A stretch of DNA of 64,000 bases from Escherichia coli (GTDB taxonomy: Bacteria > Pseudomonadota > Gammaproteobacteria > Enterobacterales > Enterobacteriaceae), in NCBI RefSeq assembly GCF_041248615.1, contig NZ_CP158426.1; one strand, given 5' to 3'. The position numbers are program-made. Below, piece after piece: positions 55,601 through 61,600 of this stretch (position 1 is its first letter; each line of letters begins with the position of its first letter).

Positions 55601-58600
55601 CTAATAATGTCCACTGTAAGTCTCAAACAATTATACGGAAAAACGCATGCATACTGGAGCGGCGTATTCGCCATGACGCTTTGCGTGTTTGTGCTGATCG
55701 CTTCTGAGTTTATGCCAGTCAGCCTGCTTACGCTCATTGCCCATGATTTGCACGTTACCGAAGGGCTGGCAGGGCAAGGAATTGCTGTCTCTGGTGCGCT
55801 GGCGGTGCTTACCAGTCTGACTATCTCCCGTATTACCGGAGACCTGAATCGAAAATATCTTCTGCTGGGGCTGACGGCCTTAATGGCCATATCGGGAATA
55901 GTTATCACCATAGCACCTGACTATCCGGTTTATATGCTGGGGAGGGCCCTGATTGGTATCGTCATTGGAGGGTTCTGGTCAATGTCGGCTGCAACCGCCA
56001 TTCGGCTCGTGCCGAAGCAGCATGTCCCCCGCGCACTGGCAATTTTTAACGGCGGAAACGCACTGGCCACCGTTGTGGCAGCGCCACTTGGTAGCTATCT
56101 GGGGACAACCATCGGCTGGCGTGGGGCCTTTTTATGTCTGGTCCCCCTTGCGATAGCTGCGTTCATCTGGCAATGGGTCAGTCTGCCTCCGATGGAAAGT
56201 GATAAAACACAAAAGCTACAGAGATCTGTGCTTCGCCTGTTCAGCGTTGCCATCGTACCAACGGGACTGCTGGCCTGCGGACTCTTCTTTATGGGACAGT
56301 TTGCTTTATTTACCTACGTGCGCCCCTTTCTGGAGAGCGTCACCAGAGTGGGACCTTCTGATCTTTCTCTGATTTTGCTCGCAATAGGTGTAGCAGGTTT
56401 TGTCGGCACAATGATCGTCTCAACATTCCTGAACACCATATTTTATAAGACCTTAATAATGATCCCGTTGCTTATGGCAGCGATTACCGGTGCGTTACTG
56501 CTGGTCGGACACCATATCTGGGCTGTTGCCGTTTTACTCAGCCTGTGGGGGCTACTTGCGACAGCTGCGCCAACGGGGTGGTGGACATGGATAGCACGCG
56601 CGTTACCCGAAGATGCAGAGACGGGGGGAGGCCTCATGGTTGCAGTGATTCAGTTATCTATTGCACTTGGTTCAACGGCTGGAGGTCTGGTATTCGACAG
56701 TCTGGGATGGAGAAGTGCTTTTGGTTTAAGTGGTTTGTTACTTCTGGGAGCGGTAGCGATGACATGTGCCACATCCCGTCAAAACAGGAAGGCGCAGTAG
56801 CGCAATCCTTTTATTTCTGGCGTACGCTCTTTAAGGCATCCGGCTGAGAGGCTAATGATCACTCCTCGCTCACAACGGACCTTCAGCTCAGCCGCTCCGG
56901 CCGCTTCATGCCATGAATGTACGCAGCCAGTCAGAATATTAAGGTGCGGATTTCAGTTCACTTGTCAGCCCAGTGATACAGGACAGTAATGACCAACAAT
57001 TTGGTATTGATACAACAAGTTGCGGCCCCGGTTCGTGGGGGAGATGAAACGACGGTAGCTGAAGTTACTGAAATGAAGAATTCAGAGAGACTGAATGATA
57101 TGCCTCACCTTTAGTGAATAGTGTAAAAACGGGAGACTCTCACCCGAGATTATCCACTCATGCTCAATGTATAATTTTCGTGCCCCTCACAGGTAAGAGC
57201 CGGATGCATTCGTTGTGTACGTTGCAGAATTGGTAACCGGGGACCCTGCAGTCTTTAACTCCGAGTCTTGTGCTGCTCATTTGCCACAAAATCCTGGTAC
57301 GCCAGCTCAATCATTTCATTCAACAGTTTTTTTGGGGGGCACCACGACTTCGGGCAATACTTTCAGGCTGTTTGTGGATTTTTCCGGACAGTTTCAGCGG
57401 AACGGAACCATCAGCACGTTCATCACGCCTTTTTTGTTGCTCCCGGGCACTTTTCAGTTCATCCACAATATAGCTGCTCTTCTCGCATTTTTGCCGATTT
57501 TAAAAATGCGAACAAAACATCCGTACATGATGTACAGATTAAACTGCCAGGGACTGGTGTCAGAAAGCCTCCGGTTAGCCTGCTCTTTCCGGAATGTGCC
57601 GGTTATGAAAAACCGGAAATTCAGTCTCTGTTGTAAGATGTACCCTCTGATACTACGTTTTCGTTTTCTCTGTGTATTTAACTCACTGTATTTATTGTCT
57701 TTTTAAGCCTGACTGATATTCTCCGGTCATAGTGTGCCGGATAGACATCCCGTAACCTTCTCATTTTTATATAAAAATACCTGCACTGTCTTCAGCGCAT
57801 CTGTCTCCTTTAAGTAAAAAATGTTTTCACGTATTGCTGTAAATTCATTTTAAATCAGTATGTTATCCTGATATTGCTGTCTCCTGGTTTGATGCGTAAT
57901 CGTTCTGCCTTTCTGGATGATTCTGGTGCTTCCGGGTGCATTCTCCTCTGCACATGCAACAGTTCGTCATCGCCACGTGCCCAAAAAGCATATAAAAACG
58001 AATCGAATCTGATCGTTTTTTCAATCGTTTTTCACAGGAATTTCGTAGGGTGTTCTCCGCTATAGCCTCCATATTTGCTGTCTTTTTCTTCATAAATCGT
58101 ATGCAATATAACCAGTCTGTCAAGACATCTTCCCTGCTGTTGAGGTGACGATCTCATTTCTGGTCTTTTCCGGGAGAGAGACGGTCAGATGAGCGAGCCG
58201 GATTTACTGCCAGAGGTACTCCCCGCGGCAGAAAATAGTGCTCCTGTTTCCGCAATCCGGGATCGGCAACGTCCCATGGTTAATGCCACTTGCAGCGTCA
58301 GGCACTGCAGGTTTACGTCGTGATCTGATTTCTTCTGCACTTATCCCGATCACGGAAGTTCCCCCTGCGCAGACATCGGTTCCTGCCGACATCTCACAAT
58401 ACCGCCAGGCTGTCATGCAGTAACACCCGCAATGCGGTCTGCGGTTTTAAGCGCACTCTCCTGTTTTCAGTGCACCGATAAGCGTTATAGAAAGTCTGGG
58501 GTGAGTTACTGAATGTCTGTTAAGTGGTGCCGTGGGTGGAGACTGCTTACTTTTCCACAGCAACTGCAGTCATTCAGGATGCTCAGGAGAGAATATGTCA

Positions 58601-61600
58601 ACGCCACGAGCCGGGCCATTTTCATGCCAGCCAGTATATTTTCTACACTGATGCAGTCTGATTTTCACCATTCCATCCTCACTGATTGTCGTGTTGTTTT
58701 GGGTCATCACCACAGCTTTCCGTTTCTCTTTTAATCGGTAACGCTCTCCTTTGATATTCAGCGTGGTTGAGTGATGCAGCAGTCAATCCAGGAGCGCTGT
58801 TGTCCGGCAACCACCATATCAACTTCTTCCCGGCGTGCCGGCGCTGGTATCCAGGCCGGGTTTCGAAGCGAAGCGTTCCTGACGGACTCATTGACATCCG
58901 GGCCGGATGTAGTCATGCAGCATGGAACGTCCGCCCGTATACACTGACGGCGTCCGGCCGTGTACAGAGATCGGTAAAATTCGTTACTACAACTGTTCCT
59001 GAATATCTGACGAAGAAACATTCAGCAATAACATCCGGCCGTGTACATCTCTTTTGCGGTGCAGGGAGCACTGTCGCCATGTACTTATTGTCACCAGGGT
59101 GAGGCATGTACCGCAGCATGCCAGCTCAGCAATGACAGGATGCCCTTAAGACATCCGTCATGGCTCAGTATGATGACGACGAACACGCTCTGCAGGTGAG
59201 CATGCAGGGCCGGGGGTATCATCATTTCCGTATTTTGCCGCACCTTCCGGAAACAACCGGCATCAGTTACGGTTACCGTCAACCGTTGTGCGGTATGCCA
59301 GGAGCACGTACTGATCCATCAGATCCGTCAGTGCTGCGTTCTGCTTCTGACGGTCGATGATCCATTCCCCCAGCTCTTTTTCTGATTTCCGTTTCAGGTT
59401 CTCCGTCCAGTCGTCAAGGCTGTTTCCGGTCATTAAATCAAGCCAGCAAAGCCAGACCAGTTTGAGGCGCAACTCCGTGCCACCAAACTGACGGAAGAGG
59501 CTGATCAGTTTATTTGCCAGAGAACGCTGCCTCAGACGTTCACATTCAGACAGCAGAATCCCTTCCAGCATCGGATGATGAACCAGCAGATGTTCGCTGG
59601 TGCATAAGTTCACCACCAGATCATCATCCAGGGGCGGCGTGGCCCGTTTGTCAGAGCCATAAATCAGCCGGTGCAGACTCCGGGGTACGATGGCAATCTT
59701 CGGTTTTTCACCATTGAATGACACCCACCCGGGCGTCAGATTATGGAAGTAGTGGATATTCGGATGACACACGCCCCAGGATACGGCGTGCCGGGTGAAG
59801 CCGGTCAGCCATTTCTGGTAGCTTTCGTGGAGCAGCTCGTAACGGGTCTGATACTGTGGTTTCATTTTCATATTCCTCACGGGGGATAACAGGCAGCAGA
59901 GTGCCGCCGGCAGGCCGGAGATTGCGTCTGCTGTGGGCGAAGGGCCAGTGGTTAAAAATTACGGACGGGACTGTGCAATACGCGCCTGCAGCCAGGCTTC
60001 CACTTCACTTTTCAGCCAGCGGGAGCTGCGGCCGAGTTTGATGGGAGCCGGAAAGGCCCCATCCTTGATGAGCTTGTAAAACCACTTATCGGTCAGGCCG
60101 GTCAGCTGAGTGATAAACGTCATATCGACCATCTGGTCATCCATCAGCGAAACTGGGGTGGTCATAAAAATCTTCTCCGGATGTTGTTAATCTCAGCCGG
60201 CGTTGATGATGAAAACAACGCACCACCTTCACCGGCATAACAACCGGGGAGAAACGTAAAAAATCAGTAGGGGAATATTCCTGCCAGGAGAGAAACTGTT
60301 GTGTACAGGCAATACAGGTTGTCTGTTTTGTCAGTGAAGCCGGTATAAACGGAAGATGATTTTGTGTTGCCGGAATATGGGATGGCGTTTTGCCGTGACA
60401 GGATCAGTATTTTCAGTGATGATTATTACTGTGCAGGGGAGTACCGGAGATAAACCACGCCCTGTACCTGCCAGAGCGGAGGTTTGTATTGACTGAACGG
60501 AAGATAAAGCGAGGTAAACACTGTTGCGGTGAGCGGAGAAGACTGAGATTATTCTCTGTAATTACAAACAACAGTGATCTGATCCGGTTTTTTTACCGTT
60601 ACGGGTTTCCGGGGATCAATTTTATAGACCGGGGTAATGACCACGCCGGAATTTATGGAGAAAAGCGGGATCCAGCAATAAACGTCCGGATATTTCTGTG
60701 TCTCCGGAATACCTTTTGTGCCAGAGGCCATCAGATCTTTAACGCTCACGAAAAATGACTTCCGCAGATCAAAAAAGTACTCGTTATATATCACATCCTT
60801 TGCCAGCAGGATGACTGCATTACCAACAGCCGATTTTACAGGTGTTTCATCAGGTGGATTATCGTGATTGTATATTGTTCTTTCTATATAAATAAAACAG
60901 GCATATTTCGTCTTCTCCCCGGATAGTTGCATCTGGTATTCGCAAATGTCTTTGATATACCGACTTTCAACCCTTCCAATCATCTTATCCCGGCGATAGT
61001 GTCTTTTATGTTTCAGCGCGTACAGAACACCATTTGAACTGTCAAACTCCAGGACACTTCTGGTGAAAAGTTTGTTTTCCCAGATCTCCAGACAATACTT
61101 CTCTGCACTGACGACATTGCGTTTGTGGGGAAGATTCCGTTGATACACTCCATTTAATAAGCGTGACTGCAGTTCGCCTGCAAGTTGATAGTAACAGTTA
61201 ATGTCATTAAGGACAGGTGCTGTGGCGTTGAGTAATGTGTTGATTACCTTAGAGCGCGAAAGTTTGTGGGTATGACAGTACTCATCCACAATTCGCAGTG
61301 TCTCATCACTGGTCATATTGAAAGTTATACGTGTTGTCATGATGAAGTTTTCTGTTAATCATACTGGTTGATATGCATAACATTTCATAAAAAATACTGT
61401 TAATTCATATAATTGATTTTTTGACTGGTTTTATCCTCGTGTGGTGGAAAGCAGTATTACTGCCACTGTAGTCAGCATAAATCTATCACACAGAACCACC
61501 GAAAATGAAGCATTGCTCAGGGGGAAGCTGCCACTCGTATGAGTTCTCTGAACCATGATAACCAGTATTTTTCGTTTTGGGTGATTTGTTTATCGTTACA

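What the first reader, a model, noticed from the sequence alone, without database searches (positions are those of the whole stretch)
56801..59262. About 2.4 kb without convincing genes between the MFS transporter and the AlpA-like module
Only short, overlapping, compositionally unconvincing ORFs are present, with mixed GC content. This looks like decayed gene remnants or junction DNA between mobile modules; it could also hide a non-coding RNA or an attachment site.
Basis: seen in the sequence. Interest (0 to 1): 0.3.

Follow-up and report, generated by a model that had tools for sequence, protein, structure and literature searches.

The report
Gene graveyard beside a cassette-exchange site
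This 2.4 kb of an E. coli genomic island really has no working gene: it is the wreck of one deleted gene and one dead insertion sequence. Its left edge, however, is the end site of what looks like an undescribed integron-like system that swaps multi-gene cassettes.

Summary
Window 56801-59262 (E. coli NRZ14408, pheV island) has no intact conserved gene. The longest ORF, 163 aa, is what shuffled sequence gives, and no ORF matches Pfam.

The interval holds a dead 391-aa backbone gene: about 0.94 kb deleted plus a frameshift, intact in relatives. It also holds that gene's orphaned 1.1-kb upstream region, which evolves at the gene's synonymous rate. Next come a 346-bp IS21-family relic and flanking non-coding DNA. 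There is no tRNA, Rfam family or tRNA-Phe repeat.

The unexpected part is the left edge. 56857-56880 is a 24-bp inverted-repeat site (A, core TCGCTCA). It pairs with a related site at 53165-53188 (B, core GTGCCAG), and together they bracket the LysR-hydrolase-MFS cargo.

In 90 loci from several genera these sites alternate as "B cassette A, 18 nt, B cassette A". I found 40 cassette types, including Gabija, DRT1, colicin M and iron uptake. Near-identical E. coli arrays differ by cassette permutation or loss, with reciprocal hybrid sites that cross over inside the 7-bp cores. One such array is in a complete genome. A 200-aa tyrosine recombinase sits in many arrays, but not in this window.

I found no published description. 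The relic reading is near certain; the recombination system is inferred from sequence comparison only.

The parts
53165..53188 (+). Site B (GTCCGCTC TGTGCCAG GAGCGGAC). It is the left boundary of the cargo cassette. It lies outside the finding's interval but is the partner of the site at 56857.
   Evidence: Homology with the complete genome APEC E12049 (L101) ends at 53179, inside this site's core.
53189..56856 (.). Single 3.67-kb cassette: LysR regulator (53239-54126, minus), alpha/beta hydrolase (54279-55430, plus), MFS transporter (55607-56800, plus). 56801-56856 is its 3' tail and is the first 56 nt of the finding.
   Evidence: Other genomes carry different cargo between the same two sites.
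56857..56880 (+). Site A' (GATCACTC CTCGCTCA CAACGGAC). It is the terminal A-type site of the array. The left arm is degenerate (4 of 7 matches to GTCCGCT). The 7-bp core TCGCTCA is at 56866-56872.
   Evidence: About 1,300 E. coli genomes have matches that begin at 56862-56866.
56881..56922 (+). 18-nt spacer (56881-56898) followed by a decayed B-type site (56899-56922, GGCCGCTT CATGCCAT GAATGTAC).
   Evidence: Read from the sequence against the A-18 nt-B junctions seen in other loci.
56923..57254 (.). Non-coding right arm of the array platform, which is also the 3' flank of the 391-aa gene.
   Evidence: Indels of 34, 1 and 2 nt among six relatives and no conserved ORF. The segment is absent from 'empty-site' relatives, where the GTPase gene directly follows the gene.
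57255..57488 (-). Pseudogene of a 384-392-aa island backbone gene. The start codon and about 9 codons remain (57488-57462). They are joined to codons 321-391 (57469-57258). About 0.94 kb is missing (scar near 57463-57474), and a frameshift lies in the homopolymer run near 57331-57343.
   Evidence: The gene is intact in L003, L006, L007, L009-L011 and L014.
57489..58595 (-). Orphaned upstream non-coding region of the dead gene. It holds a promoter-like site (-35 TTGACA at 58123, -10 ending at 58096, minus strand) and small unconserved ORFs.
58596..58941 (-). IS21-family relic. It has a terminal-repeat-like TGTCAACGCCACGA (58596-58609), IstB residues 214-265 with an in-frame stop (58803-58648), and IstA residues about 85-121 with a frameshift and stop (58941-58835). 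About 1.4 kb is deleted internally and the left end is lost.
58942..59262 (.). Non-coding 3' flank of the 202-aa gene. It contains the first 103 nt of the PGAP-called 66-aa ORF (59160-59360, plus), which is probably spurious.

Best explanation
The interval is a non-functional scar zone in the backbone of a tRNA-Phe (pheV) P4-integrase/AlpA-type E. coli island.

Reading the minus strand, the ancestral backbone ran: AlpA, 202-aa gene, 391-aa gene, YeeP-like GTPase. Three events wrecked the stretch between the 202-aa gene and the GTPase.

(1) An IS21-family element inserted upstream of the 391-aa gene and then decayed to 346 bp. This is old, because every E. coli relative examined carries the same relic.

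(2) A cassette-array platform inserted at the 3' end of the 391-aa gene. The platform consists of a left arm ending in site B, the cargo, then site A, an 18-nt spacer, a decayed B site and a right arm.

(3) In this lineage about 0.94 kb was deleted from the 391-aa gene and a frameshift was added, which killed it and left its promoter region orphaned.

Nothing in 56923-59262 is likely to do anything now.

The left edge (56857-56922) is different. It is the terminal junction of an integron-like cassette array. Multi-gene cassettes are bounded by two kinds of 24-bp inverted-repeat core sites: A (GTCCGCTnnTCGCTCAnrCGGAC) and B (GTCCGCTnnGTGCCArnAGCGGAC). They are excised and reinserted by A-with-A and B-with-B site-specific recombination, with strand exchange inside the 7-bp cores.

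The most likely enzyme is a 200-aa catalytic-domain-only tyrosine recombinase that is itself encoded in many arrays. In this window the array holds one cassette (LysR, hydrolase, MFS), has no recombinase gene, and its A site has a degenerate left arm. The cassette is therefore probably fixed, or movable only with a recombinase supplied in trans.

Shown: the anatomy, the homologies and the hybrid sites. Inferred: the order of events, the enzyme, and present-day activity.

The confidence of 0.8 is a blend: about 0.9 for the relic reading of 56923-59262 and about 0.65-0.7 for the recombination-site reading of 56857-56922.
For: Relics:
- The 391-aa gene is intact in seven relatives and has homologues at 25-32% identity with 65 invariant residues.
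- The window keeps only codons 1-9 and 321-391, with a frameshift.
- IstB and IstA fragments carry stops and lie next to an IS21-like terminal sequence.
- PGAP calls both remnants pseudogenes in the source record.
- Upstream non-coding diversity (pi 0.03-0.04) equals the gene's dS of 0.03-0.07.
- The small ORFs there are broken by 1-2-nt indels in relatives.

Platform insertion:
- 'Empty' relatives have the GTPase gene 84 bp from the gene. The window has 4.15 kb there instead.

Sites:
- Motif A has 30 distinct left flanks and 23 distinct right flanks in 90 loci from Escherichia, Hafnia, Rahnella, Phytobacter, Enterobacillus, Pseudidiomarina and metagenomes.
- There are 37 A variants and 40 B variants with strong consensus.
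- Arrays read 'B cassette A sp18 B cassette A', with 40 cassette clusters.

Recombination:
- L038 and L045 are 99.6-99.9% identical but have blocks of 3.2 and 5.7 kb swapped. All four junction sites are reciprocal hybrids (A1-left with A3-right, A3-left with A1-right, and the same for B).
- L046 lacks one block and has an A2-left with A3-right hybrid.
- The swapped order is present in the complete genome APEC E12049. The other order is in 220 complete genomes, including Nissle 1917.
- Window versus APEC E12049: the flanks are 98.6-99.2% identical, and homology breaks inside B (53179) and resumes inside A' (56862).

Recombinase:
- It matches only the Pfam Phage_integrase catalytic domain.
- It lies on the same strand, 1.5-8.4 kb upstream of the terminal A, in 15 of 90 loci. 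An A-like site sits 50 nt before its start and a B-like site just after its stop.
- It is present in 862 of 5,426 E. coli genomes.
Against: - No experiment links the 200-aa recombinase to the sites. Most arrays, including this one, lack it in cis: 1,361 genomes carry the right arm against 862 with the gene.
- The window's A site has a degenerate left arm, so activity here is doubtful.
- Most of the 90 loci are short metagenome contigs, where joins at repeats could be assembly artefacts. Only one complete genome confirms the swapped order.
- The arms show no covariation. This fits double-stranded protein-binding sites but gives no independent structural support.
- The function of the lost 391-aa gene is unknown (no Pfam or NCBIfam match, no fold match), so I cannot say what the deletion cost the island.
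- An unannotated small RNA or small protein in 57489-58595 cannot be excluded without transcript data. A 41-aa ORF at 58032-58157 (minus) is intact in all ten copies.
Confidence: 0.8

Rival explanations
1. The conserved AT-rich block 57600-58160 encodes a functional non-coding RNA or small protein that outlived the deletion of the neighbouring gene.
For: - Ten diverged copies are 82-96% invariant per 50-nt bin there.
- A near-consensus sigma-70 promoter-like site lies at 58123-58096 on the minus strand, with terminator-like hairpins downstream.
- The leader 57489-57800 (minus) folds with z = -2.98.
- A 41-aa ORF (58032-58157, minus) is intact in all ten copies.
- PGAP calls a 79-aa ORF there in some genomes.
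Against: - Diversity (0.03-0.04) equals the synonymous divergence of the adjacent gene (0.03-0.07). The block is young rather than constrained.
- There is no Rfam hit at E <= 5.
- The region right after the promoter-like site folds no better than shuffles (z = -0.67).
- The 76/79-aa ORF is truncated or frame-shifted in 4 of 10 copies.
- The 41-aa ORF accumulates amino-acid changes freely.
Confidence: 0.1
2. The A and B motifs are not recombination sites. They are conserved regulatory or terminator-like palindromes at operon ends. Cargo differences arose by ordinary homologous recombination in the flanking arms, or by assembly artefacts.
For: - The sites usually lie between convergent genes or after gene ends.
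- The arms are conserved in sequence without covariation.
- Most loci are metagenome contigs.
- Flanking arms of 60-400 bp are shared among E. coli arrays and could support RecA-mediated exchange of whole arrays.
Against: - The motif is exact over at least 21 nt in genera whose flanks share no homology.
- Internal block swaps cannot be made by exchange in the outer arms.
- The junctions are reciprocal hybrids that switch parent inside a 7-bp identical core flanked by mismatches. That is too short for RecA.
- The swapped order exists in a finished genome.
- No T-run follows the palindromes.
- A tyrosine recombinase gene is embedded between A-like and B-like sites.
Confidence: 0.15
3. The interval contains the island's boundary or attachment site (a tRNA-derived direct repeat), so two islands abut here.
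For: Gene content changes character on either side (metabolic cargo versus the AlpA module). IS relics often mark island joints.
Against: - No tRNA is present in the window.
- The 23-nt tRNA-Phe 3' end has no match with up to 3 mismatches.
- The tRNA-Phe and P4-type integrase lie 11.8 kb to the right of the window.
- The order AlpA, 202-aa gene, relic, 391-aa gene, GTPase is one conserved backbone in over 2,000 E. coli genomes. The gene pair 370-aa gene plus GTPase sits next to AlpA in Citrobacter koseri as well.
Confidence: 0.03
4. The conserved non-coding block is an origin of transfer (oriT) that lets the island hitch on conjugative elements. The neighbouring 391-aa protein would act as an accessory DNA-binding factor.
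For: - The block is AT-rich and sits next to a gene whose C-terminus looks like a ribbon-helix-helix motif (my reading).
- oriT-only islands are reported as common (bioRxiv 10.64898/2026.01.13.699239).
- The island carries DUF932, antirestriction and RadC genes typical of transfer leading regions.
Against: - A blastn search against 72,556 plasmids found nothing outside the IS21 fragment.
- The structure model has no ribbon-helix-helix strand and no significant fold match. MatP scored probability 0.11 only.
- Conservation is neutral-like.
- The cited paper does not mention this island type.
Confidence: 0.05

Closest known systems
Integrons (IntI integrase, attI/attC, cassette arrays)
   Same: - Arrays of exchangeable cassettes, each separated by a composite imperfect-palindromic site of about 66 nt.
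- Excision and reinsertion that reorders cassettes.
- Cargo rich in anti-phage defence and other accessory functions.
- Arrays often found without the recombinase, like CALINs.
- A tyrosine recombinase is implicated.
   Different: - The recombinase is 200 aa, has the catalytic domain only, and scores 15.9 bits against a cut-off of 265 on the integron-integrase model.
- The sites are two alternating 24-bp double-stranded-type core sites with distinct 7-bp cores and no arm covariation. They are not folded single-stranded attC with R''/L''/L'/R' boxes.
- Cassettes are 0.4-5.7 kb, often multi-gene and in either orientation, so they must carry their own promoters.
- The recombinase gene sits inside the array between sites.
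R64-type shufflon (Rci recombinase, sfx sites)
   Same: Multiple short recombination sites acted on by a tyrosine recombinase. The B-site core GTGCCA(A/G) matches the sfx core 5'-GTGCCAA-3' (PMC4176322).
   Different: - The sfx right arm (TCCGGTACGTGG) is unrelated to AGCGGAC.
- sfx sites are asymmetric and allow inversion only. Here the sites are symmetric, in direct orientation, and give excision and integration.
- Rci is about 384 aa (from memory). This recombinase is 200 aa.
pdif / Xer-dependent modules of Acinetobacter plasmids
   Same: Accessory-gene modules bounded by short inverted-repeat recombination sites with a central spacer, found in many contexts without a dedicated recombinase in cis.
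   Different: The arm sequences bear no resemblance to the XerC/XerD half-sites of dif (GGTGCGCATAA-TGTATA-TTATGTTAAAT, from memory). The sites here come in two core classes in direct orientation. A dedicated small recombinase gene is present in many arrays.
IS21 family insertion sequences (IstA transposase, IstB helper ATPase)
   Same: 58596-58941 aligns at 82-85% DNA identity with IS21 and encodes recognisable IstB (71% identity over 52 aa) and IstA fragments, next to an IS21-like terminal sequence.
   Different: Only 346 of about 2,130 bp survive. There are stops, a frameshift and a 1.4-kb internal deletion, and the left end is missing. It is a fossil, fixed in every relative examined.
CP4-type / pheV P4-integrase islands of E. 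coli (AlpA, YeeP GTPase, Ag43, CbtA/CbeA, RadC)
   Same: The surrounding gene set and order match, with integration at tRNA-Phe next to a P4-type integrase.
   Different: I found no published mention of the cassette-array platform between the GTPase gene and the 391-aa gene.

Membership tests
   ORF list. Pfam on the ten longest ORFs found nothing. PGAP pseudogene calls. The 66-aa ORF shows only non-synonymous change.
391-aa island backbone gene family (unnamed) | Full-length ORF of 370-392 codons with the conserved W43-L44-K46...F278-D279-N280-W281 core | tested here: not met
   Only codons 1-9 and 321-391 remain, with a frameshift. This is a pseudogene.
IS21 family | Homology to IstA and IstB | tested here: met
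   tblastn gave IstB 214-265 at E = 9e-19 and IstA 85-121 at E = 2e-4. blastn to IS21 gave 82-85% identity.
IS21 family | Complete element with both terminal inverted repeats and intact istA and istB | tested here: not met
   Only one terminal-repeat-like sequence remains (58596-58609). There are stops, a frameshift and a 1.4-kb internal deletion.
Integron | IntI-type integrase (integron-integrase model, extra domain) | tested here: not met
   NCBIfam TIGR02249 scored 15.9 bits against a cut-off of 265, and PRK15417 gave no hit for the 200-aa protein. No recombinase gene was found in the window by tblastn.
Integron | attC sites: single-strand-folding imperfect palindromes with RYYYAAC / GTTRRRY boxes | tested here: not met
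   The site consensus lacks these boxes (my reading). No compensatory change was seen between the arms.
Integron | Array of cassettes separated by recombination sites, with cassette reordering or loss at the sites | tested here: met
Shufflon (Rci/sfx) | sfx site: core GTGCCAA plus the conserved right arm TCCGGTACGTGG, with inversion only | tested here: not met
   The core matches in B sites, but the arm differs and the products are excision and integration.
Tyrosine-recombinase core site (generic) | Two inverted binding arms around a 6-8-bp overlap region, with crossover inside the overlap giving reciprocal hybrid sites | tested here: met
   7-bp arms GTCCGCT / AGCGGAC around the central region. 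Hybrids switch parent between site positions 9 and 17. This is comparative evidence only. Enzyme binding and cleavage are not testable with these tools.
Island attachment site (tRNA-Phe att repeat) | Direct repeat of the tRNA 3' end | tested here: not met
   No match with up to 3 mismatches. No tRNA in the window.
Known RNA families (Rfam 15) | Covariance-model match | tested here: not met
   Nothing at gathering score. The only weak matches were a CRISPR-DR13 hit (27.9 bits against a gathering score of 37) and a miRNA hit, both likely chance.

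The most novel reading that the evidence does not exclude
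Enterobacterial (and some other gammaproteobacterial) genomic islands carry a previously undescribed integron-like gene-capture system. Arrays of multi-gene cassettes are bounded by two alternating 24-bp core sites: A with core TCGCTCA, and B with core GTGCCAR, joined as A-18 nt-B. They are shuffled by a 200-aa catalytic-domain-only tyrosine recombinase. The cargo includes anti-phage systems (Gabija, DRT1, HEC-08, PDC-S15), colicin M, iron uptake and metabolic modules. Window 56857-56922 is the terminal junction of one such array.
Probability: 0.4. Interest if true: 0.8.

Novelty: new variant of a known kind. Interest (0 to 1): 0.5.

Why it matters
The 2.4 kb itself is ordinary. It shows how island backbones erode by IS insertion and decay, internal deletion, and orphaned promoters. 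It also explains why annotators find nothing there.

What matters is the junction at its left edge. If the A/B sites and the small recombinase form a working cassette-exchange system, E. coli and its relatives have a second, integron-independent way to capture and reshuffle whole operons inside pathogenicity islands. That cargo includes phage-defence systems. About a quarter of complete E. coli genomes carry the platform.

The idea is directly testable. Expressing one 200-aa protein and looking for circles would do it, and strains such as Nissle 1917 already carry both the array and the recombinase gene.

Tried and rejected
- **Rfam and tRNA.** Rfam on the whole window and a permissive scan of the interval found no family. 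ARAGORN found no tRNA. Rfam on six loci from other genera found nothing.
- **tRNA-Phe repeat.** A search for the tRNA-Phe 3' end found nothing.
- **Special constraint on 57600-58160.** Rejected, because diversity equals the neighbouring gene's dS.
- **Small ORFs as genes.** The 86-aa ORF (57863-58123, minus) is frame-shifted or truncated in 4 of 10 copies. The 66-aa ORF (59160-59360, plus) shows only non-synonymous change outside its overlap with the 202-aa gene.
- **Remnants of other genes.** I looked in 56866-57254 using tblastn with neighbouring proteins, including the GTPase. Nothing was found, and the indels show the segment is non-coding.
- **Plasmid and oriT similarity.** Only the IS21 part matches plasmids.
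- **Hairpin or attC-like folding of the A and B sites.** Rejected, because there is no arm covariation.
- **Function of the 391-aa protein.** There is no Pfam or NCBIfam family. The AlphaFold model had pLDDT 59.7, and no PDB fold match had E <= 0.001.
- **Literature.** Searches by site sequence, protein accessions and keywords found no description. The ROD21/EARL paper (PMC8844411) and the 'iOriT' preprint were read and are not about this feature.
- **A correction to my own working.** I first assumed the window was collinear with strain GF43. It is not to the left of about 46 kb. The true source is NZ_LT599825.1.

Full report
**Source and setting.** The window is E. coli NRZ14408 chromosome NZ_LT599825.1, positions 896001-960000. 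The finding lies inside a genomic island integrated at tRNA-Phe. That tRNA and a P4-type integrase lie about 11.8 kb beyond the right end of the window. The local gene order is:
- Ag43 (interrupted by ISEc12)
- YeeP-like GTPase (52137-53009, minus)
- LysR regulator (53239-54126, minus)
- alpha/beta hydrolase (54279-55430, plus)
- MFS transporter (55607-56800, plus)
- the finding (56801-59262)
- 202-aa hypothetical gene (59263-59871, minus)
- AlpA (59959-60165, minus)

**The observation.** It is confirmed. The interval holds only short overlapping ORFs. The longest, 163 aa, is within what dinucleotide shuffles give (mean 124, sd 27; 20 of 300 reach 163). None of the ten longest ORFs matches Pfam. 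GC ranges from 0.40 to 0.55. No tRNA and no Rfam family is present. PGAP annotates two pseudogene fragments and one 66-aa ORF.

**Anatomy from comparison with relatives.** The 2.9 kb around the finding is 100% identical in several E. coli chromosomes. Parts of it occur in 3,359 of 5,426 complete genomes. I aligned the window to ten diverged copies (L002-L011). This resolves the interval into six pieces.

(a) 57255-57488 (minus) is the wreck of a 384-392-aa gene that is intact in relatives.
- The window keeps the start codon and about nine codons. These are joined to codons 321-391, so about 0.94 kb is missing. There is also a frameshift in a homopolymer run near 57338.
- The window copy now reads MREEQLYCG-stop.
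- The intact gene has no Pfam or NCBIfam family and no significant fold match (model pLDDT 59.7).
- It has relatives at 25-32% identity in Citrobacter koseri and Cronobacter, with 65 invariant residues.
- In C. koseri it sits next to AlpA and directly upstream of the YeeP-like GTPase gene. It is therefore a genuine backbone gene.
- Among E. coli copies dN/dS is 0.5-1.0 and dS is 0.03-0.07.

(b) 57489-58595 is the gene's upstream region, now orphaned.
- It is present full-length in 2,088 genomes and almost never annotated.
- The sub-block 57600-58160 looked strikingly conserved. However, its diversity (0.03-0.04) equals that of the adjacent gene and matches its synonymous divergence. The block is young rather than constrained.
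- It carries a good sigma-70-like site on the minus strand (58123-58096).
- The ORFs in it are broken by 1-2-nt indels in some copies.

(c) 58596-58941 is an IS21-family relic.
- It has an IS21-like terminal sequence, the last 52 codons of istB with an in-frame stop, and about 37 codons of istA with a frameshift.
- About 1.4 kb is deleted internally.
- All E. coli relatives share this relic. In UTI89 an IS100 later landed in it.

(d) 58942-59262 is the non-coding 3' flank of the 202-aa gene. The 66-aa ORF called there shows only non-synonymous changes outside its overlap with that gene.

(e) 56923-57254 is non-coding, with indels of 34, 1 and 2 nt and no conserved ORF.

(f) 56801-56922 is a junction, treated next.

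**The junction.**
- Four, then five, different E. coli cargo contexts join the same right-hand sequence at the same nucleotide (56865|56866). About 1,300 genomes have matches that start at 56862-56866.
- 'Empty' relatives have the GTPase gene 84 bp from the 391-aa gene. The window has 4.15 kb inserted there (53105 to about 57260).
- The insert has a left arm ending in GTCCGCTCTGTGCCAGGAGCGGAC (site B, 53165-53188). It has a right arm beginning with (AAYK)TCCGCTnnTCGCTCACAACGGAC (site A). The window copy, 56857-56880, has a degenerate left arm.
- After site A come 18 nt and then a decayed B (56899-56922).

**The sites elsewhere.**
- I scanned public collections for TCCGCTNNTCGCTCACAACGGAC. This gave 7 loci in species-representative genomes (Hafnia, two Rahnella, Phytobacter, Enterobacillus, Pseudidiomarina and one Clostridia MAG), 3 viral contigs and 73 metagenome contigs.
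- Motif A has 30 distinct left flanks and 23 distinct right flanks. The flanks are not homologous to the window.
- A permissive scan found 37 A variants and 40 B variants with clear consensus. Both have 7-bp inverted arms GTCCGCT/AGCGGAC around a central region. A carries the core TCGCTCA and B carries GTGCCA(A/G).
- The arms do not covary. The sites therefore look like double-stranded protein-binding core sites rather than hairpins.
- Arrays read 'B cassette A, 18 nt, B cassette A ...', with 40 cassette clusters of 0.1-5.7 kb.
- Cassette genes lie in either orientation. They include TonB/ABC iron uptake, LysR, LysE, GNAT, EamA, colicin M, SLATT, Gabija (GajA/GajB), DRT1, HEC-08 and PDC-S15.

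**Evidence that the sites recombine.**
- Contigs L038 and L045 are 99.6-99.9% identical, but blocks of 3.2 kb and 5.7 kb are swapped around a 1.1-kb block. The breakpoints fall inside the sites.
- The four junction sites are reciprocal hybrids. A1 (GTCCGCTC CTCGCTCA GAGCGGAC) and A3 (GTCCGCTG TTCGCTCA CAACGGAC) become GTCCGCTG TTCGCTCA GAGCGGAC and GTCCGCTC CTCGCTCA CAACGGAC. B1 and B2 likewise exchange right halves.
- One excision by A-with-A recombination followed by reintegration by B-with-B recombination produces exactly this order.
- L046 lacks the 5.7-kb block and carries an A2-left/A3-right hybrid.
- Metagenome joins at repeats can be artefacts, so I checked finished genomes. The L038-type junction is in 220 complete genomes, including Nissle 1917. 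The swapped junction is in the complete genome of APEC E12049, whose whole array has the swapped order.
- APEC E12049 also carries the same deleted pseudogene backbone as the window. Its homology with the window (98.6-99.2%) stops at 53179, inside B, and resumes at 56862, inside A'. In the window's own lineage, therefore, the cargo differs precisely between the two site cores.

**The candidate enzyme.**
- A 200-aa protein that matches only the Phage_integrase catalytic domain lies within arrays in 15 of 90 loci. It is on the same strand as the sites, 1.5-8.4 kb upstream of the terminal A.
- An A-like site sits 50 nt before its start and a B-like site sits just after its stop.
- It is generically annotated and occurs in Escherichia, Klebsiella, Enterobacter and Citrobacter. 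It is in 862 of 5,426 E. coli genomes.
- The window has no copy.
- That this protein acts on the sites is an inference.

**Comparison with known systems.**
- The behaviour is integron-like, but the defining integron features are not met. The IntI model scores 15.9 bits against a cut-off of 265, and there are no attC boxes or folding signal.
- The B core equals the shufflon sfx core GTGCCAA (PMC4176322). The arms, the orientation and the reaction products differ.
- The arms do not resemble Xer/dif half-sites (from memory).
- Literature searches by sequence, accession and keywords found no description. The library is incomplete, so prior description cannot be excluded.

**Verdict.** The finding as written is correct and, for 56923-59262, ordinary: a deleted gene, its orphaned upstream region and an IS fossil (confidence about 0.9). 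The first 120 nt are the terminal junction of a cassette array. Its comparative signature is that of tyrosine-recombinase site-specific recombination (confidence about 0.65-0.7 that the system is real, and about 0.4 that it is both real and undescribed).

Noticed in passing
window 6423-6545 (+): A strong Rfam isrC match (150 bits) lies at the edge of an IS3-like ISEc31 copy in the source record, not in a yeeP-flu intergenic region. The family may be picking up an IS end.
   Followed up: partly
window 51783-52019 (-): An Rfam IS102 RNA match (70 bits) lies between the Ag43 remnant and the GTPase gene. A partial A-like motif (TTGCACACAACGGAC, 2 mismatches) sits inside it at 51906-51920 on the minus strand.
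   Followed up: no
window 25909-25947 (+): An Rfam JUMPstart element, as expected upstream of a capsule (kps) operon.
   Followed up: no
window about 48534-50836 (record 944534-946836): An intact IS21-like ISEc12 (istA and istB) splits the Ag43/Cah adhesin gene in this strain. It accounts for the extra roughly 2.6 kb relative to strain GF43.
   Followed up: partly
window 58032-58157 (-): A 41-aa ORF (MRSSPQQQ...PTKFL) is intact in all ten diverged copies, although it accumulates amino-acid changes. It overlaps the promoter-like site. It was not tested as a small protein.
   Followed up: partly
window 57519-57539; relatives L002, L003, L006-L008, L010, L011: A hairpin 30 nt upstream of the dead gene's start codon carries a 9-nt tandem duplication polymorphism (ATGTACAGA or AGGTACAGA) in most relatives. 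The duplication is absent from the window.
   Followed up: no
L101 (APEC E12049, NZ_CP126952.1) 13695-13906: The same 0.94-kb-deleted allele of the 391-aa gene occurs behind a completely different cassette array. The deletion therefore predates at least one array change, or the arrays are exchanged between backbones.
   Followed up: partly
L015 839-1928; L019 (oriented) 6026-7173: Single-gene cassettes are flanked by B on the left and A plus B on the right: DUF2971 in E. coli, and a 288-aa ORF in Phytobacter. This shows that the unit of exchange can be one gene.
   Followed up: partly
L007 (UTI89) 4498-6299: An IS100 has inserted into the old IS21-family relic, splitting the istA fragment. The relic acts as an IS landing pad.
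   Followed up: no
L018 (Clostridia MAG, goat caecum) 2459-2481: An exact motif-A match lies inside an ORF of an unrelated organism, with no B site nearby. It is probably a chance match or contamination.
   Followed up: no
L099 (Citrobacter koseri) 831-4837: An OLD-family ATPase/TOPRIM gene plus a UvrD helicase gene (a Gabija-like pair) lie on the far side of the AlpA module in the related island.
   Followed up: no
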